Shown here in pieces: positions 244 through 10,010 of a stretch of DNA of 10,010 nucleotides. The notes under the pieces were generated by a model that was given only the letters and a program-made list of their open reading frames with translations, had not been told where the DNA came from and searched no databases. Position 1 is the stretch's first letter. Every line of letters starts with the position of its first letter. Source of the stretch: a virus; the UHGV virus genome UHGV-0197950. One strand, given 5' to 3'. A program made the position numbers and the translations under genes.

Positions 244-332
244 GTTCGCGGGTGTTCGTGGTAGTGTTTTGTGTGCATTCATCGCTATGATTATAAAGGA
301 AAATTTTGTTTTCCTTGTTCGCTCTTGTTCGT
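244..332 (+). repeat. Four direct copies of TGTTCG(C/T) in two tandem pairs (244-259 and 314-332); candidate integrase arm-type or regulator-binding sites
   Basis: gtgttcgcgggtgttcgtg at 243-260 and ttgttcgctcttgttcgtc at 313-333; also GGTGTAGT twice at 358-377. Binding function is inferred. Confidence 0.3.
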
Positions 333-404
333 CACGGTTTGCCCTTGTACGATGCACGGTGTAGTCAATGGTGTAGTTAATTTTGATGACCGGAAACGCG
401 AAAC

Positions 405-1643: not shown

Positions 1644-2062
1644 CAAATTACGGCTGTTTTTTCTTTAAGAGATTACAGCCGTGAATAGATCTTAGAATAT
1701 CGGGGAATATCTGCAAATATCTTCTCTTTATATGTGTCAACTATCGAAAAAAATTGAAATGTCTTCTTCTGAGTTCTTATTCTCTGTTTCTTGATTGTTC
1801 CAACACCTGATGGTTTATCTATTTGTTTTTAATGAGGTAATTCAGGTGTCATGCCAAATGACGACATTTTTTGTTGCGTCGCTTAAAAACTCGTGACACG
1901 ATTTTAAACACTAACGAGCTTCTACGAACCTTAGCGAACAAAGCCTTTAGCATGGTTGTGTTTTTAATTTAATAGGTGAAAAAGAATCTAAGTAATATCC
2001 GATCTCATATATCTACAGCTAAGAGAAAAGTTTATATACGTAATTTTTATGTAGGTTTTTGT

Positions 2063-2272: not shown

Positions 2273-2299
2273 AGGGGAGCATATGACATATAAAACAAA

Positions 2300-2319
2300 G
2301 GCGACCGGGGGCGGTCGCC
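2300..2319 (-). terminator. GC-rich perfect hairpin (GGCGACCG-GGGG-CGGTCGCC); possible terminator for leftward transcription from the repressor gene, or for alpA
   Basis: 8-bp perfect stem at 2300-2307 / 2312-2319. On the minus strand it is followed by a U-rich run (CTTTGTTTTA); on the plus strand it lies 28 nt after the alpA stop with no U-tract. Confidence 0.35.
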
Positions 2320-2623
2320 AATGGATACACACTAAACTTGAACGCATCACCAACAATGCCACATTTGCGGCTGGTGGGCAATGTGATCAGTCAGATTTGG
2401 TTCGTTCCAAGGTTTGCAACGAGAGCTTTTTCCTGTGCTCTTTAAGGAATTTCTCAAGAGCAAACGAACAAGGTGCGAATCTTTCTGATTCATGTTCATG
2501 CGCTATATTTTTGCGTCGTCTCTTACGAGTTGGTGATGGTGTTTTGGTTGATTCTGTGTCGCTCATGGTGCTGTCCTGTAAAGCAATGCGCCTGCGTTCC
2601 TCAAACTATGGCGCTGATAGTGG

Positions 2624-2929
2624 CTATTCCTGCTCTTTGACCTTGCGTCGCTGGAGTTCTTCACGCGCGACGGTGACGAGTTGCCCGATCTCCTCGGCGG
2701 CTTTGACTCCGATTTTTTCCACCTGCGCTAGGGCATCGAGCGAAGAAACCAGGAGGTTTTCTCCGCTTCCTTCTGCCTGGCGGCGGGCGATTTCACCGCG
2801 CATGGCGGTTACTATGAATCCGGCGTTGCTTTCACCGTCCAGTTTTACGGATTCCATGCCTTCAATAACATCATGCGGGATCCGAGCTGTCAGTGATTGT
2901 GATTTTGCGTTTTTTGAACCTGTAGCCAT
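2624..2929 (-). CDS. Putative ribbon-helix-helix-type DNA-binding repressor (candidate island immunity/maintenance regulator)
   Basis: 101 aa from ATG (minus) at 2929 with SD GAGAGGA 6 nt upstream: MATGSKNAKSQSLTARIPHDVIEGMESVKLDGESNAGFIVTAMRGEIARRQ..., i.e. an N-terminal beta-strand/helix pattern typical of RHH (Arc/CopG-like) proteins and a charged helical C-terminus. The track start at 2944 is a TTG. Divergent from a region with two palindromic operators. Family assignment is by pattern only. Confidence 0.55.
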   Translation of the reverse strand: MATGSKNAKSQSLTARIPHDVIEGMESVKLDGESNAGFIVTAMRGEIARRQAEGSGENLLVSSLDALAQVEKIGVKAAEEIGQLVTVAREELQRRKVKEQE

Positions 2930-2950
2930 CTGTAATCCTCTCAATGAAAG

Positions 2951-3027
2951 TGTAAGACAATATACACATAAAAAGTCTTACATAAAAGCATTGACATGTA
3001 AGCCACCTATAAATAAAGTTGCTTACA
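2951..3027. promoter_or_regulatory. Divergent control region with two palindromic operators (TGTAAGAC-N16-GTCTTACA and TGTAAGC-N17-GCTTACA) overlapping a TTGACA -35 element
   Basis: Read directly: 2951-2958 tgtaagac / 2975-2982 gtcttaca; 2997-2003 tgtaagc / 3021-3027 gcttaca; TTGACA at 2991-2996 with a -10-like TAAAGT 17 nt downstream (3014-3019) reading towards the + strand gene at 3126. Confidence 0.55.
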
Positions 3028-3125
3028 CCTTGTTAATGCAAGGTGCAGAAACGACGAAACCCCGCACTGTAGGAGCAGTAACGGGGCTTCTAACCACCAA
3101 CGATAGCAAGATTATCGAGGCAGCT

Positions 3126-3329
3126 ATGAGAAATCATACCATACACCCGCAAGGGCGGGACTCGTACAACCTGAATAAATACATCTGGCGTTTTATCGCC
3201 CTGAGCACCGCACAACCGCGCGTGATTCACATCGTGGCCACCAGCGAACAGGAAGCACGCCAGCAATCCCCGGCTGGCTGCGTGATGGTATTCGCCGCCC
3301 GTATTCGTCAGGGGGTGTGCCATGCCTGA
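3126..3329 (+). CDS. Small hypothetical protein (67 aa); first gene of the rightward operon; possibly an Icd-like cell-division-inhibitor-family protein
   Basis: ATG 3126 with GAGG SD 5 nt upstream, in frame with the end of the long 2283-3329 ORF: MRNHTIHPQGRDSYNLNKYIWRFIALSTAQPRVIHIVATSEQEARQQSPAGCVMVFAARIRQGVCHA. The Icd-like label is a recollection, not verified. Confidence 0.45.
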   Translation: MRNHTIHPQGRDSYNLNKYIWRFIALSTAQPRVIHIVATSEQEARQQSPAGCVMVFAARIRQGVCHA

Positions 3330-3648: not shown

Positions 3649-3948
3649 ATGAGAACGTATTTATCTGGCTTGACTGCCAGCGGTTATGCACACCCCCAAA
3701 TTATCCCCGGCGCTATTTATCTGGATAAGAACGGTAACAGAGTAACGGTAAAAGAACTGATGTTTGACCGTGTGTATTTTATCCGTGATGGCTATTCATT
3801 TCTTAGTTCGCTGAACGTGGAGATCTTTATTTGCAGATTCCGGCGGGAAATCCCGACTTCCAGAAATAACCATGTGTCACGTGTGGATGTGGATAAAAAA
3901 CTACAGGAACTGAAAAACATGATTGCCGCGTGGAGAGAGCAGAAATGA
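3649..3948 (+). CDS. Hypothetical protein (99 aa)
   Basis: ATG 3649 preceded by GGGGA. Its stop TGA 3946-3948 overlaps ATG 3945 of the replication gene (ATGA coupling). No motif recognised. Confidence 0.55.
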   Translation: MRTYLSGLTASGYAHPQIIPGAIYLDKNGNRVTVKELMFDRVYFIRDGYSFLSSLNVEIFICRFRREIPTSRNNHVSRVDVDKKLQELKNMIAAWREQK

Positions 3949-5762
3949 AAAAAGCGCCAAATTTAAAACACCAGCCGCGTGACAAAATGACGGAAGTCAT
4001 CATTTTTGCGGGTAGTGATGCGTGGGCACATGCGAAGCAGTGGCAGGAACAGGACGGGCGACTGGCTGGCGATAACGTGCCACCTGTCTGGCTTGGAGAG
4101 CAACAACTTGCCGAACTGGACAACCTGCAAATCGTACCGGACGGACGCTATCGCGTGCGTCTCTACCAGGCGGGGTTATTGCGTCCGGGGCTTGTTAATA
4201 CCATCGGGCAGAAACTGGCAGCGGCAGGTGTCAGGGATGCTGATTATTACCCTGAAGGAATGCACAGCCAGAAACGGGAGAACTGGCGCGAATATCTGGA
4301 ACGTGAACGGGCAGAGCAGGCGGAAAAGAAAAAGGTAGTTGAACTGCCTGTAAAGAAAAAAGAGCGGGTAAAAGACGATAACGCTTCATCACTGGCGCTT
4401 AACCAGATGGGAGCAAGTCAACGCGGCGAAGTTCTCCTGGCACATTATGGCGGTGAACTGGCGATTCATGCTGACTCTGACACTGTTCACCATTACAACG
4501 GCGTTGTATGGGAGCCAGTACAGGATAAAGAATTACAGCGAGCTATGGCACAGATTTTCATTGATGCGGAGATCAGCTATTCGCAGAACGCCATTAAATC
4601 GGCGGTCGATACCATGAAGTTAAGTTTGCCTGTTATGGGGAATACAGCCCGTAACCTGATTGGATTCAGTAACGGGGTATTTGATACCAGAACAGGTAAT
4701 TTTCGGGAGCATAACAAAAACGACTGGTTGTTAATTGCCAGTGAATTACCTTTCAGCCCACCAGCAGAGGGGGAAACGCTGGCAACACATGCGCCGAATT
4801 TCTGGAAGTGGTTACGCCGTTCGGTGGCTGAGAATGACCGCAAGGCGGATCGCGTACTGGCTGCATTATTCATGGTGCTGGCGAACCGGTACGACTGGCA
4901 GTTATTCATTGAGGTAACAGGTCCAGGGGGAAGTGGTAAAAGCGTGATGGCGGAGATTTGCACCATGCTGGCGGGTAAGGTTAATACAGTATCAGCGAGC
5001 ATGAAGGCGCTGGAAGATGCAAGGGAACGCGCGTTAGTGGTTGGCTTTTCGCTGATTATCATGCCGGATATGACCCGCTACGCTGGTGATGGGGCGGGAA
5101 TTAAGGCTATTACAGGCGGTGACAAGGTGGCAATCGACCCAAAACATAAAGCCCCATATTCAACGCGTATCCCGGCAGTAGTGCTGGCGGTTAACAATAA
5201 CGCTATGTCATTCAGTGACCGCAGTGGGGGGATCTCGCGACGTCGGGTGATATTCAATTTTTCGGAAGTTGTACCGGAGAACGAACGCGATTCAATGCTG
5301 GCGGAAAAAATAGAAGGTGAGCTGGCGGTAGTGATTCGTCATCTGCTTACACGGTTTGCTGACCAGGACGAAGCCAGACGCCTTTTATATGAGCAGCAGA
5401 AATCAGAAGAAGCACTCGCGATAAAGCGTGAAGGTGATTCGCTGGTGGACTTCTGCGGCTATCTCATGGCGTCGGTAATGTGTGATGGCCTGTTAGTGGG
5501 TAATGCTGAAATTGTGCCATTCAGCCCGCGCAGGTATCTCTATCATGCCTATCTGGCTTATATGAAGGCACATGGGTTTGGTAAACCTGTAACACTGACG
5601 CGCTTCGGTAAAGATATGCCGGGGGCAATGGCGGAATATGGCAGGGAGTATATGAAACGGAAAACGAAGCACGGTTTGCGTTCAAACGTGACACTGACGG
5701 AGGAATCAGAAGACTGGATGCCATCATGTGTATCGGTCACTAATGACGATAGCAAAAATTAA
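3945..5762 (+). CDS. Replication initiation protein, phage/plasmid primase-helicase family (P-loop NTPase; pri-rep-like)
   Basis: 605 aa from ATG 3945 (SD GGAGAGAG 3932-3939); the track start 3930 is a GTG. Walker A motif GPGGSGKS (EVTGPGGSGKSVMAE) and a downstream hydrophobic stretch plus acidic residues (LVVGFSLIIMPD) consistent with Walker B. Size and position immediately upstream of an iteron origin match satellite/PICI pri-rep genes. Confidence 0.8.
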   Translation: MKKAPNLKHQPRDKMTEVIIFAGSDAWAHAKQWQEQDGRLAGDNVPPVWLGEQQLAELDNLQIVPDGRYRVRLYQAGLLRPGLVNTIGQKLAAAGVRDADYYPEGMHSQKRENWREYLERERAEQAEKKKVVELPVKKKERVKDDNASSLALNQMGASQRGEVLLAHYGGELAIHADSDTVHHYNGVVWEPVQDKELQRAMAQIFIDAEISYSQNAIKSAVDTMKLSLPVMGNTARNLIGFSNGVFDTRTGNFREHNKNDWLLIASELPFSPPAEGETLATHAPNFWKWLRRSVAENDRKADRVLAALFMVLANRYDWQLFIEVTGPGGSGKSVMAEICTMLAGKVNTVSASMKALEDARERALVVGFSLIIMPDMTRYAGDGAGIKAITGGDKVAIDPKHKAPYSTRIPAVVLAVNNNAMSFSDRSGGISRRRVIFNFSEVVPENERDSMLAEKIEGELAVVIRHLLTRFADQDEARRLLYEQQKSEEALAIKREGDSLVDFCGYLMASVMCDGLLVGNAEIVPFSPRRYLYHAYLAYMKAHGFGKPVTLTRFGKDMPGAMAEYGREYMKRKTKHGLRSNVTLTEESEDWMPSCVSVTNDDSKN

Positions 5763-5776
5763 ACTTATGGAATAAC

Positions 5777-6006
5777 TGTTCACCACTGTTCACCCTGTCA
5801 TAAATATTTTTTATATCAGTATATTATAGGGTGAACAGTTATTTATGAACTGTTCACCAAACTATTCACTGTTCACCTTTTTGATTGTTTATTGAGCTTC
5901 AAGGGTGAACAGTGGTGAACAGTTGGTGAATAGTTTTTGTGAAACTGTTCACCCCTTAACATTATGAATTAAAAGATAAAATATCAAAAGGTGAACAGGT
6001 GAAGGG
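5777..6006. repeat. Iteron array / putative replication origin: about 10 copies of TGTTCACC (both orientations) flanking an AT-rich stretch
   Basis: TGTTCACC at 5777, 5787, 5851, 5870, 5946; GGTGAACA at 5830, 5904, 5914, 5990; degenerate copies at 5861, 5925, 5998; AT-rich 5795-5828. Lies immediately after the replication gene stop (5762). Confidence 0.75.
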
Positions 6007-6049: not shown

Positions 6050-6295
6050 ATGACAGCGAAGCACATAAAAAAATCACAATCGCACGCCCTTGATTTGACG
6101 GAACACTGGTTAAGGGTGTCGATAAAAATCATCGACCGCAACGCCGGGGAAGGATATGCGAAAGCACATCCCGAACTGATTAGCGCATTCATGACAACGG
6201 CAGCTGCAAACTTTGCCACGCTGACAGAACGGGAGATTGCCGAAGCGGAACAGGTGACAACCATCAACGTTAAAACCGGAGAGCAGACAGCATGA
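6050..6295 (+). CDS. Hypothetical protein (81 aa), translationally coupled to ssb
   Basis: ATG 6050; stop TGA 6293-6295 overlaps ssb ATG 6292 (ATGA). No motif recognised. Confidence 0.5.
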   Translation: MTAKHIKKSQSHALDLTEHWLRVSIKIIDRNAGEGYAKAHPELISAFMTTAAANFATLTEREIAEAEQVTTINVKTGEQTA

Positions 6296-6714
6296 CAGCA
6301 CAGATAGCGGCTTACGGACGGCTGGTGGCTGATCCGCAGTTAAAGACCACCAGCAAGGGTACACAAATGGCGATGGCTAGTATGGCGGTCCCCCTTCCGT
6401 GCAGCCAGGCAGATGACGGAACGGCGATGATGTGGTTATCCGTCCTGGCGTTTGGCAGACAGGCCGACGCACTGGCAAAACACCACAAAGGCGAACTGGT
6501 GAGCGTGGCGGGTAACATGCAGGTAAGCCAGTGGACAGGCCAGAACGGCGAAACGCGGCAGGGCTGGCAGGTTATCGCAGACAGCGTGATCAGTGCGCGA
6601 ACAGCGCGACCGGGCGGCAAAAAAGGCCAGCAGGGGCAGGCCACTGACGCACTGAACAGGGCAAAACAACAGTCGGGGAATGATGATCCGTACGGCGATA
6701 ATATACCGTTTTAA
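6292..6714 (+). CDS. ssb: Single-stranded DNA-binding protein (SSB-like, OB-fold) with acidic C-terminal tip ...DDPYGDNIPF
   Basis: 140 aa; N-terminal region follows the E. coli SSB pattern (IAAYGRLVADPQLKTTSKG... / WLSVLAFGRQADALAKHHKGELVSVAGNMQVSQWTGQNGETRQGWQVIADSV), a Gly/Gln-rich linker, and a C-terminal IPF tail resembling SSB DDDIPF. Confidence 0.8.
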   Translation: MTAQIAAYGRLVADPQLKTTSKGTQMAMASMAVPLPCSQADDGTAMMWLSVLAFGRQADALAKHHKGELVSVAGNMQVSQWTGQNGETRQGWQVIADSVISARTARPGGKKGQQGQATDALNRAKQQSGNDDPYGDNIPF

Positions 6715-6731: not shown

Positions 6732-6760
6732 ATGCCGGAAAAAAATAGATTTTCCGGCAT
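6732..6760. terminator. Perfect 11-bp-stem hairpin (ATGCCGGAAAA-N7-TTTTCCGGCAT) between the replication and head modules; possible bidirectional terminator or insulator
   Basis: Arms 6732-6742 and 6750-6760 are exact reverse complements; a T-rich run follows on the minus-strand side (CTTTTTGTTTG); 18 nt after the ssb stop. Confidence 0.4.
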
Positions 6761-6925
6761 GCTACATAAATCCCGACCAAAGGAAGTAAATACATTAACA
6801 CGAATTATCAGCACTGAAGTTGTCGCGGCATATTTTATACAACATTGCACTTGGTTGCATGTATTCGCATAGCAGACATCGGTAATAGAATATATTCACA
6901 ATTATTTGTAATGAATGTAAAGAGG

Positions 6926-7972
6926 ATGAGTATGGTTGACTTATATTCGCCTACACAGCTTGTGCAGGTGGCTAATGCTGAAGATGTGCAAAAAAAATTA
7001 AATGCGTTGTTTACCAGTTTGTTTTTCACTCGCTCGGTAATGTTTGAATCGAGAGACATTATTCTTGATACGATCGACGATCCAAATATCCCGATCGCGG
7101 CGTTTTGCTCTCCTATGGTGGGCAGTAAAGTTTCACGAGATGAGGGATACGAATCAAAAACAATTCGCCCTGGCTATATGAAACCGAAAAGCAGCATTGA
7201 TCCAAATAAGTTAGCTGTGCGCCCTGCTGGTGTATCACCTGAGCAATACAATGCTTTTGGAGCGCGTAATATTAAAGTTAAACAGGCGATTGTAAATCAG
7301 GCTAAAGCTATTCGTGCACGTATTGAATGGCTTGCCGTTCAGGCAATCACAACGGGGAAAAATATCATTGAGGGCGATGGTATTGAACGTTATGAGCTGG
7401 ACTGGAATATTAAACCACAAAATATCATCACTCAGTCTGGCGGTGCTGAGTGGTCAGGTAAGGATAAAGAAGCTTTTGATCCAAATGATGATATTGAGAG
7501 CTACGCAGAATTTAGTGAGGGCGTCACTAATATTATCATTATGGGCGGTAATGTATGGAAGAAATACCGTTCATTCAGGGCGATAAAAGAGGCTCTGGAT
7601 ACTCGTCGTGGTTCTAATTCCGAACTGGAAACGGCCCTTAAAGACCTTGGTGATTCGGTGAGTTTTAAAGGGTATATGGGCGATGTTGCGATTGTTGTTT
7701 ACAGCGGGCGTTATACCGACGAGGACGGAACTGAAAAATATTTCCTTGATCCTGATTTGATGGTGCTTGGCAATACGGCTCTTCAGGGGATTGTCGCTTA
7801 TGGCGGTATTCAGGATCCGGAGCTAATCCGGATGGGGCTGACTAAAGCCGAACTTGCACCGAAAAACTATATTGTGCCTGGTGATCCGGCTATTGAATAT
7901 GTGCAGACACATTCAGCACCACAGCCAATACCGGCCCGCATCAATCGTTTTGTTACCGTTCGCATTGGCTAA
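6926..7972 (+). CDS. Major capsid protein, phage lambda gpE family
   Basis: Begins MSMVDLYSPTQLV (lambda gpE begins MSMYTTAQLL) and shares long blocks with gpE as recalled: NIITQSGGAEWSGKDKEAFDPNDDIESYA, LDTRRGSNSELETALKDLG, GDVAIVVYSG, MVLGNT, PGDPA. Start may be ATG 6926 or 6932 (AGAGG abuts 6926). Stop TAA 7970-7972. Confidence 0.9.
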   Translation: MSMVDLYSPTQLVQVANAEDVQKKLNALFTSLFFTRSVMFESRDIILDTIDDPNIPIAAFCSPMVGSKVSRDEGYESKTIRPGYMKPKSSIDPNKLAVRPAGVSPEQYNAFGARNIKVKQAIVNQAKAIRARIEWLAVQAITTGKNIIEGDGIERYELDWNIKPQNIITQSGGAEWSGKDKEAFDPNDDIESYAEFSEGVTNIIIMGGNVWKKYRSFRAIKEALDTRRGSNSELETALKDLGDSVSFKGYMGDVAIVVYSGRYTDEDGTEKYFLDPDLMVLGNTALQGIVAYGGIQDPELIRMGLTKAELAPKNYIVPGDPAIEYVQTHSAPQPIPARINRFVTVRIG

Positions 7973-7981
7973 GGGGGAGCA

Positions 7982-8323
7982 ATGGCTACTCATTACACTG
8001 AACTCATGTCTGGCACTGAAGCACTGGTTACTACGCTGGGGATATTTTCAGCCAATAAAGGGGTAATACCTGCGTTTACGCCACTGATGCAGGAAGATGC
8101 AACTGGTGCGCTAGTGGTATGGGATGGAACGAGCGCAGGCAAAGCGGTTTATGTTTCCGCTGTACAAATCGACACAGCGAAAAAAACACAGGCACAGGTT
8201 TATAAGACAGGTGTTTTAAATGTTGATGCTCTGAACTGGCCTGAGTCTGTAAAAGAACTGTCGGCAAAGGTTGCCGCGTTTGTTGGCTCAGGTATTTCTG
8301 TTCAGCCGCTGGCTCGTGTGTAA
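7982..8323 (+). CDS. Head decoration protein, phage lambda gpD family
   Basis: 113 aa with SD AAGGGGGAG; motifs shared with gpD as recalled: TPLM, LVVWDGT, YKTG, WPE, AAFVGSGISV. Lies immediately downstream of the capsid gene (order E then D, reversed relative to lambda). Confidence 0.8.
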   Translation: MATHYTELMSGTEALVTTLGIFSANKGVIPAFTPLMQEDATGALVVWDGTSAGKAVYVSAVQIDTAKKTQAQVYKTGVLNVDALNWPESVKELSAKVAAFVGSGISVQPLARV

Positions 8324-8334
8324 AGGGGGATACA

Positions 8335-8718
8335 ATGCAGAATCATTACAATGACCTTAAGCCAATTGCCGAAATGATGTATCCGGATCCAGCAGTAGAG
8401 GAATTAAAGGCTATTGCTGACAAAATGCGTTTAAGTGAACGCCTTGTTGATATGAATCAGGTGATGGAACTTACTACCCTTAGCCGTCGCACATTGCTAA
8501 ACCTTGAGGCTCGCGGAGAGTTCCCCGAACGCGTACAGGTTACGGAAGGGCGTAAGGCCTGGTATTTAAGTGAAGTGATCGACTGGATAAACAATATTCC
8601 TCGAGCTTCTGAATATTGCCGCGTACCTGTCCCAAAAAAGCCAGATGCGGCGCTATGCCTCAAGATTGAGCGTGTACGTCGCAATGCACGGGATGGTCGC
8701 TATAAGTTGATTGGTTGA
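8335..8718 (+). CDS. AlpA-type HTH DNA-binding protein with N-terminal extension (127 aa); candidate late/packaging regulator
   Basis: SD AAAGGGGGA; C-terminal half has an AlpA-like HTH (MELTTLSRRTLLNLEARGEFPERVQVTEGRKAWYLSEVIDWINN). Sits between the decoration gene and cos. Confidence 0.7.
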   Translation: MQNHYNDLKPIAEMMYPDPAVEELKAIADKMRLSERLVDMNQVMELTTLSRRTLLNLEARGEFPERVQVTEGRKAWYLSEVIDWINNIPRASEYCRVPVPKKPDAALCLKIERVRRNARDGRYKLIG

Positions 8719-8741
8719 TGAAATTAGGGCCCGTTCTGGCT

Positions 8742-8810
8742 GGCGGGTCCTTTCCGGCGATCCGGTAGGCTACGGGGCGGCGACCTCGCGGTTTTTCGCT
8801 ATTTATGAGC
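8742..8810. other. Lambda-type cohesive-end site (cosQ/cosN region); cosN 12-nt GGGCGGCGACCT at 8775-8786
   Basis: Island GGCGGGTCCTTTCCGGCGATCCGGTAGGCTACG|GGGCGGCGACCT|CGCGGTTTTTCGCTATTTATGAG versus lambda right end ...CGGGTCCTTTCCGGTGATCCGACAGGTTACG and left end GGGCGGCGACCTCGCGGGTTTTCGCTATTTATGAA as recalled. Identity falls away after about +35, so the cosB region is different. About 145 bp upstream of a Nu1-like gene, as in lambda. Confidence 0.8.
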
Positions 8811-8818
8811 TTTTTCAG

Positions 8819-8833
8819 GGTGGTGGTGGTGGT
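8819..8833. repeat. (GGT)5 trinucleotide tract followed by TTTGTTGTTTG, inside the cosB-equivalent region
   Basis: Read directly: ggtggtggtggtggt at 8819-8833. Downstream are ACACCAACACACCAACC repeats (8877-8893), loosely complementary in composition. Confidence 0.6.
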
Positions 8834-8919
8834 TTTGTTGTTTGCTCTATCTCCATGAATAAAAAGGGAAAGATAACACCAACACACCAACCTGAAACCT
8901 TGACCAAGTTGGGATATTG

Positions 8920-9462
8920 ATGAAATCGCACCTGATGAACAAAAAAACCATGGCGCAAAGCTGCCGGGTAAGTGCTACAGCATTCGACAAGTGGGGAGTG
9001 ACTCCCGTTGAACGTAAAGGCCGTGAGGCGTTTTATGATGTTGCCAGCGTGATAGACAATAGGGTTAACAATGCAATTAGCCAGCTTACAAACGACAAAG
9101 GCGAGATTGATGATGATGAACTCTTACGAGTCAGGATCAGATTACTGACAGCACAGGCGGAGGCGCAGGAACTTAAAAACGAGCGCGATCGCGGTGACGT
9201 GATTGATACAGAGTTTTGCATGTACGCGCTTTCAAAACTGGCGAGTCAGATTTCATCAATCATGGACAGCCTCCCGCTTACTATGCAAAGGAGCTTCCCA
9301 CAGATGACCCCCGTCATGCTGGATGGCCTGAAAAAAGAAGTTGTCAGAGCCTGTAACGCATGCACAAAACTTGATGAAAACATCCCGCGAATGCTGTCCG
9401 ATTATCTGATGGAAACTACCGGAAATGTGCCTGATAAGTTTCAGCCGGATAAAGACAAGTAA
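8920..9462 (+). CDS. Terminase small subunit, lambda Nu1-like
   Basis: Product aligns by eye with lambda Nu1: N-terminus ...NKKTMAQSCRVSATAFDKWGVTPVERKGREAFYDVASVI versus NKKQLADIFGASIRTIQNWQEQGMPVLRGGGKGNEVLYDSAAVI; C-terminal part RLLTAQAEAQELKNERDRGDVIDTEFCMYALSKLASQISSIMDSLPLTMQRSFPQ versus RLTRAQADAQELKNARDSAEVVETAFCTFVLSRIAGEIASILDGLPLSVQRRFPE. Start ambiguous (TTG 8917, ATG 8920, ATG 8935). No TerL gene follows. Confidence 0.85.
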   Translation: MKSHLMNKKTMAQSCRVSATAFDKWGVTPVERKGREAFYDVASVIDNRVNNAISQLTNDKGEIDDDELLRVRIRLLTAQAEAQELKNERDRGDVIDTEFCMYALSKLASQISSIMDSLPLTMQRSFPQMTPVMLDGLKKEVVRACNACTKLDENIPRMLSDYLMETTGNVPDKFQPDKDK

Positions 9463-9480
9463 CGTAGTGCACAATGACCG

Positions 9481-9502
9481 AAGCCAGTTTACTGACTGGC
9501 TT
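9481..9502 (+). terminator. Hairpin (AAGCCAGT-N6-ACTGGCTT) 19 nt after the terS stop; possible terminator or RNA-stability element
   Basis: Perfect 8-bp stem read directly; the downstream sequence is only weakly T-rich (TTCAGCGTTGCG). Confidence 0.3.
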
Positions 9503-9698
9503 TCAGCGTTGCGCTGGTGGGCGTTATGCGTCAGTGATGAACAAAAAACAATCGAAATCGACACCGAAAAATAAAACATCAAGTCATATCAATATATTGC
9601 ATTGGTGGTGATGACGAATAAAAATGCAAAAACTAGCCTTTTTCCGCGATGCTCCCGCCCCGTGGCAGGGCACCCCACAAGGAGGACCCGCCATCACT

Positions 9699-10010
9699 AT
9701 GGAGGCCATGACCATGACCATGACCATGACCGAGACCGAAGCGCTCGGGATAATCCGCAGTATTACCGGAATCAGCCAGCAGGCTGGCGAACAGGAGGCC
9801 ACGCAGCCGGACAGCGTGATAGCCGAAAATTACGCGCGTGTTGTTGCTGAGGTGATGCGCCGTGATGGTATTGAGCTTAACGGCGTGGATATGCGCAACA
9901 TACGAACCAGAGTCCTTGAGTTGCTGGCATACCGTCGCCGTTCTCAACAACGGAGGGAGAGCGCGAAAAGTACTTACCAGTGGAAGAAGCCGGAACGACT
10001 GCGGCGGTAA
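9699..10010 (+). CDS. Hypothetical protein (~103 aa) beginning in a hexanucleotide repeat (MEAMTMTMTMTETE...)
   Basis: ORF ends TAA 10008-10010. Candidate starts are ATG 9699 (SD AAGGAGGA 9679-9686) or ATG 9714 (SD GGAGG 9701-9705). The track start 9624 lies in probable non-coding DNA. No confident family assignment. Confidence 0.5.
   Translation: MEAMTMTMTMTETEALGIIRSITGISQQAGEQEATQPDSVIAENYARVVAEVMRRDGIELNGVDMRNIRTRVLELLAYRRRSQQRRESAKSTYQWKKPERLRR
9707..9730 (+). repeat. (CATGAC)4 hexanucleotide tandem repeat, with a degenerate fifth unit to 9736, at the 5' end of the last gene
   Basis: Read directly: catgac x4 at 9707-9730 then cgagac; encodes MT dipeptide repeats and provides four in-frame ATG codons. 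Confidence 0.7.

What the first reader, a model, noticed from the sequence alone, without database searches (positions are those of the whole stretch)
8335..8718. Second AlpA-type HTH protein with an N-terminal extension located directly upstream of cos
A DNA-binding HTH protein is encoded as the last gene before cos, inside the morphogenesis operon, with the same AGGGGGA-type translational coupling as the capsid genes. That position is unusual for an excisionase-like regulator. It could be a packaging-specificity factor acting at cos, a late-operon regulator, or an excisionase expressed late to couple excision with packaging.
Basis: inference. Interest (0 to 1): 0.55.

Follow-up and report, generated by a model that had tools for sequence, protein, structure and literature searches.

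The report
Second AlpA regulator in satellite capsid cassette
A phage satellite island of E. coli carries a second, longer AlpA-type DNA-binding gene that always travels with the island's own capsid and head-decoration genes and a set of phased repeats at their promoter, so it is most likely the cassette's own late-gene regulator, not an excisionase or a cos packaging factor.

Summary
Window 8335-8718 (+) encodes a real 127-aa AlpA-family winged-helix protein. It has a 34-aa N-terminal and a 37-aa C-terminal extension. It lies 11 nt after the head-decoration gene and 26 nt before a lambda-type cosQ/cosN.

The window is a PICI-type phage satellite between cspD and clpS of E. coli. In 84 related loci the block [phased TTGCAY repeats - capsid - decoration - alpA2] stays constant. 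Integrase, the int-linked AlpA, primase, cosN type, cosB type and small terminase are all swapped around it.

- The same island-type small terminase also occurs in 38 islands that have no alpA2.
- Three islands have alpA2 but no cos after it.
- The repeats occur only at the capsid promoter, are absent from 80 EcCICFT073-type capsid modules that lack alpA2, and change sequence in the most divergent AlpA2 clades.

Best reading, inferred and with no binding data: a cassette-specific late-promoter regulator, probably an activator, built like PrtN and its P-box. Excisionase and cos-specificity roles are disfavoured but not excluded.

I found no paper that discusses this gene. It is a new member of a known kind, of moderate interest.

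The parts
6836..6870 (+). Conserved TTTATAC box followed by three direct repeats at 10-bp spacing: TTGCAC 6845-6850, TTGCAT 6855-6860, TCGCAT 6865-6870. This is the candidate operator for AlpA2. The last repeat overlaps the -35 position.
   Evidence: The pattern is found only here in the window and in the whole island. It is conserved upstream of capsid in Kosakonia, Kluyvera, Superficieibacter and Cedecea loci and in about 80 E. coli loci. In those loci substitutions fall mostly in the spacers. It is absent from 80 EcCICFT073-type modules. Lag-10 self-similarity of the region gives p=0.047 in the window, 0.001 in L004 and <0.0005 in L173, but is not significant in 4 of 9 loci.
6886..6891 (+). 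-10 hexamer TAGAAT of the predicted capsid-operon promoter (-35 TTCGCA at 6864-6869, 16-nt spacer).
   Evidence: Promoter scan. The other E. coli allele and other genera have GGTGATAGCAT, an extended -10, at the same place. This is a consensus match only.
6932..7972 (+). Major capsid protein, lambda gpE family (346 aa from the PGAP start).
   Evidence: PF03864 E=6e-41, phrog_29 E=4e-91. PGAP annotation.
7982..8323 (+). Head decoration protein, lambda gpD family.
   Evidence: PF02924 E=2e-15, phrog_49 E=1e-26.
8335..8436 (+). alpA2 N-terminal extension (aa 1-34). Two predicted helices (8-15, 19-33). Fast-evolving, but ends in a conserved A-D-x-M-x-x-S-E-R-L motif.
   Evidence: Alignment A1. AF2 model, pLDDT 58-81 in this part. 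dN 0.32-0.47.
8437..8604 (+). alpA2 winged helix-turn-helix core (aa 35-90), nearly invariant.
8605..8718 (+). alpA2 C-terminal extension (aa 91-127 plus stop). Pro-rich linker and a basic helix at 105-119.
   Evidence: Conserved P100, P103, L107, K110, R113, R115. AF2 helix 105-119, pLDDT about 80. Kept in the 51-55% identical relatives P0100 and P0101.
8745..8815 (+). cos: cosQ-like GGGTCCTTTCCGG (8745-8757), the 12-nt cohesive-end sequence GGGCGGCGACCT (8775-8786) and the conserved CGCTATTTATGA box.
   Evidence: Alignment with the CFT073 prophage cos and with EcCICFT073 cos1. cosN position. Alignment of 84 loci.
8816..8916 (+). Island-type cosB-like region (GGTGGTGGTGGTGG TTTTGTTGTT ... CAACACACCAACC), different from lambda-type cosB.
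   Evidence: It co-occurs with the island Nu1-type terS. Other loci with the same alpA2 carry a lambda-like R3/R2/R1 region instead.
8917..9462 (+). Nu1-type small terminase of the island. It is not part of the alpA2 cassette and is exchangeable.
   Evidence: PF07471 E=1e-22, phrog_57 E=6e-52. Varies from 38 to 99% identity or is absent next to a constant alpA2. Present in 38 islands without alpA2.

Best explanation
AlpA2 is the dedicated transcription regulator of a mobile 'late cassette' made of a promoter with phased repeats, a capsid gene (gpE-like), a decoration gene (gpD-like) and alpA2.

Proposed mechanism, all steps inferred:
1. Several AlpA2 monomers bind head-to-tail to the three or more TTGCAY direct repeats. 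These are spaced one helical turn apart and end at the -35 position of a promoter that has a recognisable (extended) -10 but a poor -35.
2. The N- and C-terminal helical extensions, which ordinary 65-75-aa AlpA proteins lack, provide cooperativity and/or the contact with RNA polymerase.
3. Because alpA2 is the third gene of the operon it controls, low read-through from the upstream early/replication genes, or from helper late transcription in helper-embedded copies, would start a positive feedback loop. That loop switches on capsid, decoration and, across cos, the packaging genes late in the cycle.

Shown: gene, fold, selection, cassette linkage, and the repeats with their conservation. Inferred: that AlpA2 binds the repeats, and the sign of regulation. 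Activation is favoured by the promoter geometry and by the PrtN/P-box precedent.
For: 1. The protein is a bona fide AlpA-type wHTH with a nearly invariant DNA-reading core.

2. In 84 loci the capsid (98-100%), decoration gene, alpA2 (95-100%) and the repeat element at a fixed distance (-1490) form one constant block. Integrase (21-100%), the int-linked AlpA (44-99%, at least three different recognition helices), primase type, cosN, cosB and terS all vary.

3. The trio is kept even in relatives with 51-58% identical AlpA2, alongside other primases and early regulators.

4. The repeat pattern occurs once in the island, at the capsid promoter, and not near att or cos. It is absent from EcCICFT073 and from 80 modules of that type, all of which lack alpA2.

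5. Within E. coli, substitutions fall mostly in the spacers between the TTGCA cores.

6. The repeat sequence changes with the AlpA2 clade while the 10-bp phasing is kept: TTAGAC/TTGTGC in L173, and a TATACA/TTGCAC/TTATAC/TTGCAT mix in L171.

7. AlpA2 is the only DNA-binding protein encoded in the co-inherited block. The upstream p6050 and ssb genes are shared with EcCICFT073, which lacks the repeats.

8. Precedents:
- PrtN activates pyocin genes through a P-box of four 10-11-nt repeats, ATTGnn(n)GTnn(n), 60-100 bp upstream of the SD (PMC4905994). Here ATTGCACnnn-type repeats lie 56-81 nt upstream of the capsid SD.
- PrtN-annotated viral proteins are among the Foldseek matches.
Against: - There are no binding or expression data.
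- The association of alpA2 with the repeats is confounded by physical linkage: they lie in the same 1.9-kb block, so co-inheritance alone does not prove interaction.
- Lag-10 periodicity is not significant in 4 of 9 representative promoters (L006, L169, L170, L171), and the repeats of the Scandinavium/Buttiauxella clade are weak.
- TTGC-N6-TTGC is also the recognition pattern of lambda CII (my own knowledge). A helper-phage factor could therefore be the binder.
- A regulator encoded at the distal end of its own target operon needs an independent trigger, which I only postulate.
- Deleting the capsid or decoration gene of EcCICFT073 had no transfer or interference phenotype (PMC6092414), so the benefit of regulating this cassette is unclear.
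Confidence: 0.45

Rival explanations
1. Same binding site, opposite sign. AlpA2 is a negative autoregulator that occludes the -35 region and keeps the capsid-decoration operon low, either in the uninduced island or as a feedback limiter.
For: In the window the last repeat overlaps the predicted -35 (TTCGCA-16-TAGAAT), where a bound protein could block RNA polymerase. The regulator is encoded within the operon it would limit, which is a common homeostatic design. All the linkage evidence of the best explanation applies equally.
Against: The -35 is poor and the -10 is extended in most loci, which is typical of activator-dependent promoters. In other genera the three strong repeats sit one helical turn further upstream, at about -40 to -60, an activator position. 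The PrtN/P-box precedent is activation.
Confidence: 0.15
2. Packaging accessory factor acting at or next to cos. Possible roles: binding upstream of cosQ, assisting terminase assembly or termination, or interacting with helper or island TerS in the manner of Rpp.
Against: - The same AlpA2 is joined to two cosN types, two cosB types and terS of 38-99% identity, or none.
- The island terS and cosB occur in 38 islands without alpA2.
- Three loci have alpA2 with no cos after it.
- The spacer between alpA2 and cosQ is not conserved between genera although the HTH is invariant.
- cosQ/cosN are the same in lambda-like phages and in EcCICFT073, which lack alpA2.
- There is no sequence similarity to RppA (one search compared terS with RppA; one search found no Rpp chain for AlpA2 even at E<=10).
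- The slot holds an unrelated 137-aa gene in EcCICFT073.
Confidence: 0.12
3. Second recombination directionality factor (excisionase), expressed late to drive or complete excision.
Against: - A constant AlpA2 is paired with integrases of 21, 37, 42, 66, 76, 96 and 100% identity and with different attachment sites, including cspD/clpS, the prophage capsid gene and fis.
- Every island already has an int-adjacent AlpA or HTH_17 regulator that does co-vary with int.
- The TTGCAY motif is absent from attL and attR, which carry other repeats: TTGTTCG and GGTGTAGTTAAT.
Confidence: 0.1
4. Interference or hijacking regulator aimed at the helper phage. It would bind helper DNA to repress or re-time helper capsid or late genes, so that the island's own capsid and decoration proteins are used. 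PLE CapR acts this way.
For: It is co-inherited with the island's own capsid and decoration genes. There is precedent for satellite DNA-binding proteins that repress helper capsid genes (CapR, cited in the bioRxiv version, 10.1101/2022.07.18.500453). Many copies sit inside the helper capsid gene itself.
Against: There is no TTGCAY-N4-TTGCAY site in the 40-kb lambdoid prophage of CFT073 held in L003. Lambdoid late genes are read from one antiterminated promoter, so there is no obvious internal target (my own knowledge). In EcCICFT073 only rppA gave interference among the post-ori genes, but that island lacks alpA2 (PMC6739421).
Confidence: 0.1
5. Processive antiterminator, like Pseudomonas aeruginosa AlpA. 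It would load at the repeats onto RNA polymerase and let it read through the hairpin after alpA2 and across cos into terS.
For: One AlpA-family member is known to act this way (my own knowledge). Hairpins or terminator-like stems lie between gene 3 and cosQ in several islands: L007, EcCICFT073, and a weaker one in the window at 8726-8749. The C-terminal basic helix is an extra element.
Against: No P. aeruginosa AlpA chain was matched by sequence even at E<=10. The window's hairpin was not called a terminator. Nothing in the data specifically requires antitermination.
Confidence: 0.08

Closest known systems
AlpA of Gram-negative PICIs (EcCICFT073 AlpA) and AlpA of CP4-57, Pfam PF05930
   Same: Same Pfam family, scoring above the gathering threshold, and the same winged-helix fold. 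Both are encoded by a PICI-type satellite. PICI AlpA is a transcription activator of island genes (PMC6092414).
   Different: Only 32% identical to the island's own int-linked AlpA. Twice the size, with N- and C-terminal extensions. Located in the late cassette after the decoration gene, not next to int. It does not co-vary with int.
PrtN and the P-box of Pseudomonas pyocin genes
   Same: A small AlpA/excisionase-like wHTH activator of phage-derived structural gene clusters. Its target is four 10-11-nt direct repeats starting with ATTG, 60-100 bp upstream of the SD. Here there are three or more 10-nt repeats, many of them starting ATTGCA, 56-81 nt upstream of the capsid SD.
   Different: No hit to the PrtN Pfam family (one search lists only Phage_AlpA and HTH_17). 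PrtN is encoded apart from its targets and is controlled by PrtR. AlpA2 is encoded inside the putative target operon. Binding is not shown.
GIsul2 excisionase (PDB 8c3t) and other AlpA/Xis-type RDFs (TorI, P4 Vis, RdfS)
   Different: 8c3t is a 73-aa single domain. AlpA2 has extensions, is not linked to an integrase, and its candidate motif is not found at att.
Rpp proteins (RppA/B/C) of E. coli PICIs and the lambda Nu1 DNA-binding domain
   Different: No sequence similarity. Rpp lies downstream of cos, in the slot occupied here by terS, and determines cosB specificity by pairing with helper TerS (PMC6739421). AlpA2 lies upstream of cos and is independent of the cosB and terS type.

Membership tests
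AlpA family (Pfam PF05930 Phage_AlpA) | Match to the family HMM above the curated gathering score | tested here: met
   34.9 bits against a cut-off of 21, residues 36-85 covering profile positions 2-51 of 51. phrog_2790 E=1.8e-48.
AlpA family (Pfam PF05930 Phage_AlpA) | Excisionase/MerR-type winged helix-turn-helix fold | tested here: met
AlpA family (Pfam PF05930 Phage_AlpA) | Typical context and size: a 60-75-aa single-domain protein next to a tyrosine integrase | tested here: not met
   127 aa with two extensions. Located after the decoration gene, 6.7 kb from int. This is typical of the family but not defining.
Recombination directionality factor (excisionase) | Genetic coupling and co-variation with a cognate integrase and att site | tested here: not met
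   The same AlpA2 is found with integrases of 21-100% identity and with several integration sites.
Recombination directionality factor (excisionase) | Binding sites in the att arms | tested here: inconclusive
   The only candidate motif (phased TTGCAY) is absent from attL and attR, but the true binding site is unknown.
Recombination directionality factor (excisionase) | Stimulates excision by the integrase | not testable with these tools
   Needs excision assays.
Rpp / TerS-like cos specificity factor | Sequence or profile similarity to RppA/B/C or Nu1 | tested here: not met
Rpp / TerS-like cos specificity factor | Co-variation with the cosB type and with the terminase small subunit | tested here: not met
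   A constant AlpA2 is found with two cosB types, two cosN types and variable or absent terS. The terS occurs without alpA2 in 38 loci.
PrtN/P-box-like late activator (functional analogy, not homology claim) | Three or four direct repeats of 10-11 nt, 60-100 bp upstream of the SD of the regulated structural genes | tested here: met
   Repeats at 6845-6870, which is 56-81 nt upstream of the capsid SD. Conserved in position and phasing in other genera. P-box definition taken from PMC4905994.
PrtN/P-box-like late activator (functional analogy, not homology claim) | The protein binds the repeats and activates transcription | not testable with these tools
   Needs EMSA or footprinting and reporter assays.
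PrtN/P-box-like late activator (functional analogy, not homology claim) | Membership in the PrtN (PyocinActivator) Pfam family | tested here: not met
   Only Phage_AlpA and HTH_17 were reported at E<=0.1. PrtN-annotated viral models match structurally on the core only.

The most novel reading that the evidence does not exclude
AlpA2 has two functions. As well as switching on the cassette promoter, its extensions let it act at the neighbouring cosQ or on capsid assembly. It occupies the slot that holds a Nu3-scaffold-like gene in EcCICFT073-type cassettes. It would thus couple expression of satellite-encoded capsid and decoration proteins to packaging of satellite DNA. That would be a satellite-specific link between late transcription and cos processing that no phage or PICI is known to have.
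Probability: 0.07. Interest if true: 0.7.

Novelty: new member of a known kind. Interest (0 to 1): 0.38.

Why it matters
The function of the capsid and decoration genes carried by many Gram-negative PICIs is an open question, because deleting them in EcCICFT073 gave no phenotype.

This work shows that one widespread version of the module is a self-contained cassette with its own regulator and operator-like repeats. That version is found in about 7% of complete E. coli genomes and in at least ten other enterobacterial genera. The cassette moves between islands that have different integrases, replicons and packaging systems.

This gives a direct experimental handle on when and why satellites express their own head proteins: delete or overexpress alpA2, or mutate the repeats.

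It also warns annotators. A Phage_AlpA hit in a satellite does not by default mark the integration module or an excisionase.

Tried and rejected
- First AF2 run with the shallow 17-sequence family alignment gave pLDDT 49.6 and was unusable. It was repeated with 115 sequences.
- A tblastn search of AlpA2 against 50,697 phage genomes found no match at E<=1e-5. The gene is satellite-specific and not borrowed from a known phage.
- NCBIfam gave no hits for AlpA2, AlpA1, terS or the EcCICFT073 137-aa protein.
- An Rfam scan of the window found nothing at gathering thresholds.
- The afdb50 fold library was unavailable. The BFVD search matched only the wHTH core and found no full-length analogue.
- The genome-contig scan returned only 5 loci. 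IMG/VR and exact-protein look-ups supplied the comparative set instead.
- I considered that AlpA1 binds the TTGCAY repeats. I rejected this as unlikely because at least three AlpA1 types with different recognition helices, and HTH_17 regulators, accompany the same repeats.
- I considered that the repeats are replication iterons. I rejected this because they persist with four different primase types, and the ori-like iterons lie elsewhere, directly after the primase.
- I considered lambda CII (TTGC-N6-TTGC, from memory) as the binder. This is not excluded, but the positions of the repeats relative to the -10 do not fit the CII geometry as I recall it, and the repeat sequence changes with the AlpA2 clade.
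The cos identification therefore rests, which aligns the window with a prophage cos and with EcCICFT073 cos1.
- I could not cross-tabulate alpA2 and promoter presence genome by genome in the E. coli collection. Only the totals are available: 366 full-length alpA2 against 353 promoter matches.

Full report
WHAT THE WINDOW IS

The window is 100% identical over 6800-10010 to a chromosomal segment of E. coli CE0032f that lies between cspD/yljB and clpS. It is a PICI-type phage satellite of about 10.1 kb. It is flanked by imperfect direct repeats, with attL at about window 325-381; attR lies about 600 nt beyond the window end.

Gene order:
- integrase, 405-1643
- AlpA1, 2063-2272 (69 aa by PGAP)
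- a YlcI-like gene on the minus strand, Icd-like genes and a DUF4222 gene
- D5-type primase, 3945-5762
- an 81-aa gene and SSB, 6292-6714
- major capsid protein (lambda gpE family), 6932-7972
- head decoration protein (gpD family), 7982-8323
- the gene in question, 8335-8718
- cos
- a Nu1-type small terminase, 8917-9462
- a phrog_1561 gene, 9624-10010

The model PICI EcCICFT073 has the same layout. There, the slot after the decoration gene holds an unrelated 137-aa protein (no BLAST similarity). The slot after cos holds rppA instead of terS.

The 127-aa product matches Pfam Phage_AlpA above the curated cut-off (34.9 against 21 bits, residues 36-85). It matches phrog_2790 'excisionase and transcriptional regulator' at 1.8e-48. 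It matches the AlpA-family protein of PDB 8c3t at 1.6e-10. It is 32% identical to AlpA1 over the 56-aa core.

Homologues of almost always 127 aa occur in many genera. Source names or record titles give Escherichia, Citrobacter, Enterobacter, Klebsiella aerogenes, Pluralibacter, Salmonella, Trabulsiella, Scandinavium, Buttiauxella, Kosakonia, Kluyvera, Superficieibacter and Cedecea. The alignment has 39 invariant columns. Of these, 31 lie in residues 35-89, and most of the rest lie in a C-terminal P-x-x-P-x3-L-x2-K-x2-R-x-R motif.

Non-synonymous divergence is 0.02-0.08 in the wHTH. It is 0.32-0.47 in the N-terminal extension and 0.29-0.35 in the C-terminal extension, with saturated synonymous sites. 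This is a real, selected gene with a slowly evolving DNA-reading core and two faster-evolving appendages.

With a 115-sequence alignment, AlphaFold2 gives pLDDT 80, and above 90 in the core. The model has helices at 8-15 and 19-33, a winged HTH at 36-86, a proline-rich linker, and a helix at 105-119. The shallow first run was unusable.

- RdfS, mycobacteriophage Xis and MerR-family N-domains
- BldC

The fold therefore does not discriminate between an excisionase, a transcription factor and a TerS-like DNA-binding domain. No viral structure matches the full length, and no phage genome encodes a close relative.

cos is directly confirmed. GGGTCCTTTCCGG (8745-8757) and GGGCGGCGACCT (8775-8786), plus the CGCTATTTATGA box, align with the cos upstream of the terminase genes of the lambdoid prophage of CFT073 and with EcCICFT073 cos1.

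The 9- and 11-nt gaps with AGGGGGA-type Shine-Dalgarno sequences are present. They indicate co-transcription rather than coupling in the strict sense.

COMPARATIVE GENOMICS: WHAT THE GENE IS LINKED TO

I collected 84 loci that encode AlpA2 and scored them with the window's proteins. Capsid (98-100% in E. coli, 79-86% in other genera), decoration gene and alpA2 are always together and in the same order. Everything else around them varies:
- the integrase ranges from 21 to 100% identity
- the int-linked AlpA ranges from 44 to 99%, with at least three different recognition helices
- two primase types alternate
- the small terminase is 99, 93, 88, 84 or about 38% identical, or absent

An alignment of the 260 nt after the alpA2 stop codon shows that the spacer and cosQ travel with alpA2. 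Downstream of cosQ there are two cosN types (GGGCGGCGACCT and GGGCGTCAGGCG) and two cosB types. One cosB type is an island type, GGTGGTGGTGG...CAAYACACCAACC, followed by the island terS. The other is a lambda-like R3/R2/R1 type, followed by a lambda-type Nu1 or by no terS. These occur in several combinations.

Three loci have no cos after alpA2, but a tail-assembly-I-like gene instead.

Conversely, among 80 loci with the EcCICFT073-type capsid module, none has alpA2. Yet 38 of them carry the same island-type terS, 85-87% identical.

More distant AlpA2 relatives (51-58% identity) still sit in capsid-decoration-alpA2(-cos). They do so with Toprim/Zn-ribbon or DUF927 primases, with HTH_17 or other AlpA early regulators, and at other integration sites including fis and prophage capsid genes.

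Conclusions from linkage:
1. alpA2 belongs to the capsid-decoration cassette.
2. It is independent of the integration module, which argues against a cognate excisionase.
3. It is independent of cosN/cosB/terS, which argues against a packaging-specificity partner.
4. Being 'directly upstream of cos' is a property of the slot at the end of the head module, not of this gene.

A CANDIDATE TARGET

Upstream of the capsid gene, the AlpA2-bearing loci share a block that stands out from otherwise diverged intergenic DNA. It is TTTATAC, then ATTGCAC-N4-TTGCAY-N4-T(T/C)GCAY (window 6836-6870).

- The pattern TTGCAY-N4-TTGCAY occurs in the window only here at zero mismatches, and twice (overlapping) here at one mismatch or fewer. 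The one other match at one mismatch is on the minus strand inside the decoration gene (8087-8102). The chance expectation is 0.43 matches.
- It occurs once in the whole island including both att regions, and in L004-L006 at the equivalent place.
- It does not occur in L003, which holds EcCICFT073 and a complete lambdoid prophage, nor in any of the 80 EcCICFT073-type modules.
- Among 20 sequence variants of this promoter in 82 loci, the differences within E. coli fall mostly in the 4-nt spacers, with two exceptions in the third core.
- The last repeat lies at the -35 position of a promoter with TAGAAT (window) or an extended -10, GGTGATAGCAT (other allele and other genera). In Kosakonia, Kluyvera and Superficieibacter the three strong repeats lie one helical turn further upstream.
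- In the divergent clades the phasing is kept but the sequence differs. L173 has TTAGAC, TTAGAC, TTGGGT, TTGTGC, TTGTGC. L171 has TATACA, TTGCAC, TTATAC, TTGCAT. L169 and L170 have weaker RTGCAR/GTGTAA/GTACAG repeats.

A lag-10 self-similarity test against shuffles gives these p values:

| Locus | p |
|---|---|
| L173 | <0.0005 |
| L004 | 0.001 |
| L005 | 0.01 |
| window | 0.047 |
| L007 | 0.047 |
| L006, L169, L170, L171 | not significant |
| EcCICFT073 | 0.99 |

AlpA2 is the only DNA-binding protein encoded in the co-inherited block. The early regulators and primases that accompany the repeats differ from island to island, which argues against their being the binders.

MECHANISM PROPOSED

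The architecture matches the P-box through which PrtN activates pyocin genes. [quoted passage not shown] The architecture here is three or more 10-bp repeats ending at a weak -35 and followed by a good or extended -10, 56-81 nt upstream of the capsid Shine-Dalgarno sequence.

I therefore favour activation. Positive feedback would follow because the gene is in its own target operon. Priming would come from read-through from the co-directional early genes, or from helper late transcription in helper-embedded copies. The extensions are candidates for cooperativity or for contact with RNA polymerase.

None of this is shown experimentally. The linkage argument is confounded by physical proximity, and a helper factor such as CII (which recognises TTGC-N6-TTGC, from my own knowledge) is not excluded.

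Rivals, each treated under Rival explanations:
- the same site with a repressive sign
- a cos-proximal packaging role
- a second excisionase
- a regulator aimed at the helper
- an AlpA-type antiterminator

COMPARISON WITH THE LITERATURE

The PICI papers describe alpA next to int as the island's activator, the capsid and decoration genes c1499 and c1500 as dispensable, and rppA (c1503) as the cos-redirecting factor (PMC6092414; PMC6739421).

The SatelliteFinder paper (PMC10085698) treats AlpA, MerR and Stl homologues as the satellites' regulatory component. It notes that a single satellite can carry two regulatory genes that match different profiles. The helper-embedded-satellite papers (bioRxiv; PMC10111431) file all Phage_AlpA hits under an 'Integration' category. 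The passages I searched do not mention a second AlpA in the late zone. Targeted searches found nothing further, and 8c3t has no paper in the library.

PGAP calls the gene 'helix-turn-helix transcriptional regulator'.

The gene is present in 398 of 5,426 complete E. coli genomes, 366 of them at full length. The promoter and capsid 5' end are found in 353.

VERDICT

This is a real, conserved, uncharacterised member of the AlpA family in an unusual but explainable place. It is the built-in regulator of a mobile capsid-decoration cassette.

- Novelty: new member of a known kind.
- Interest: moderate, 0.38. It offers a handle on the unexplained capsid genes of Gram-negative PICIs, but nothing about it is mechanistically unprecedented.

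Noticed in passing
window ~315-331 (attL), L001 13768-13794 (attR), window 1913-1941 (upstream of alpA1): TTGTTCG repeats at exact 10-bp spacing sit in both att regions, two copies at attL and three at attR. One inverted exact copy plus two degenerate copies (TAACGAGC / CTACGAAC / TAGCGAAC, about 10-11-bp spacing) lie upstream of alpA1. These are candidate sites for the integrase arm domain or for AlpA1 acting both as RDF and as autoregulator. Six of the seven TTGTTCG matches in the 23-kb locus fall in these three places.
   Followed up: partly
L004 (Kosakonia), L007 (Cedecea), L169, L047: These copies of the satellite are integrated inside the major capsid (gpE-like) gene of a prophage. Capsid fragments flank the island, and FI, FII and tail genes follow. 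These are the 'helper-embedded' PICIs described by the Williams laboratory (PMC10111431).
   Followed up: partly
downstream of alpA2 in L009-L088 (equivalent to window 8758-8916): cos is mosaic. One alpA2-cosQ segment is joined to two cohesive-end types (GGGCGGCGACCT or GGGCGTCAGGCG) and to two cosB types (island GGTGGTGG type or lambda-like R3/R2/R1). The combinations imply recombination breakpoints between cosQ, cosN and cosB.
   Followed up: partly
L003 7084-7497 (EcCICFT073, the slot equivalent to alpA2) and L003 4960-5208: The 137-aa EcCICFT073 protein in the alpA2 slot (phrog_1999) has a weak match (E=1e-8) to the C-terminal part of the head-maturation-protease profile phrog_53. It may therefore be a Nu3-like scaffold. 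That island also has a PerC-family regulator upstream of its capsid module. The two cassette types may thus use different regulators.
   Followed up: partly
window ~5765-5953 (L001 8966-9154): Palindromic iterons GGTGAACAG...CTGTTCACC are repeated directly after the primase gene. This is probably the island's replication origin.
   Followed up: no
window 6732-6760: An 11-bp-stem hairpin, ATGCCGGAAAA...TTTTCCGGCAT, lies between ssb and the capsid promoter. The T-run is on the minus-strand side. It may be a leaky boundary between early and late transcription.
   Followed up: no
window 9709-9732: There is an ATGACC x4 tandem repeat (protein MTMTMTMT) in the 5' part of the phrog_1561 ORF. PGAP starts the gene after it. 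The conserved 93-aa core is shared with the gene after rppA in EcCICFT073 (72% identity), and its function is unknown.
   Followed up: no
window 8726-8749, and L020: The stem GGGCCCG/CGGGTCC bridges the alpA2 3' flank and cosQ. In L020 the G.T pair is swapped to T.G by changes on both arms. This may be a structured element that overlaps cosQ.
   Followed up: no
window 2283-3329 (+): The 348-aa ORF listed here is probably spurious. In the identical genome PGAP annotates Icd-like genes on the plus strand and a YlcI/YnfO gene on the minus strand in this stretch. The reference strain also has a 132-nt indel relative to the window between alpA1 and the primase.
   Followed up: no
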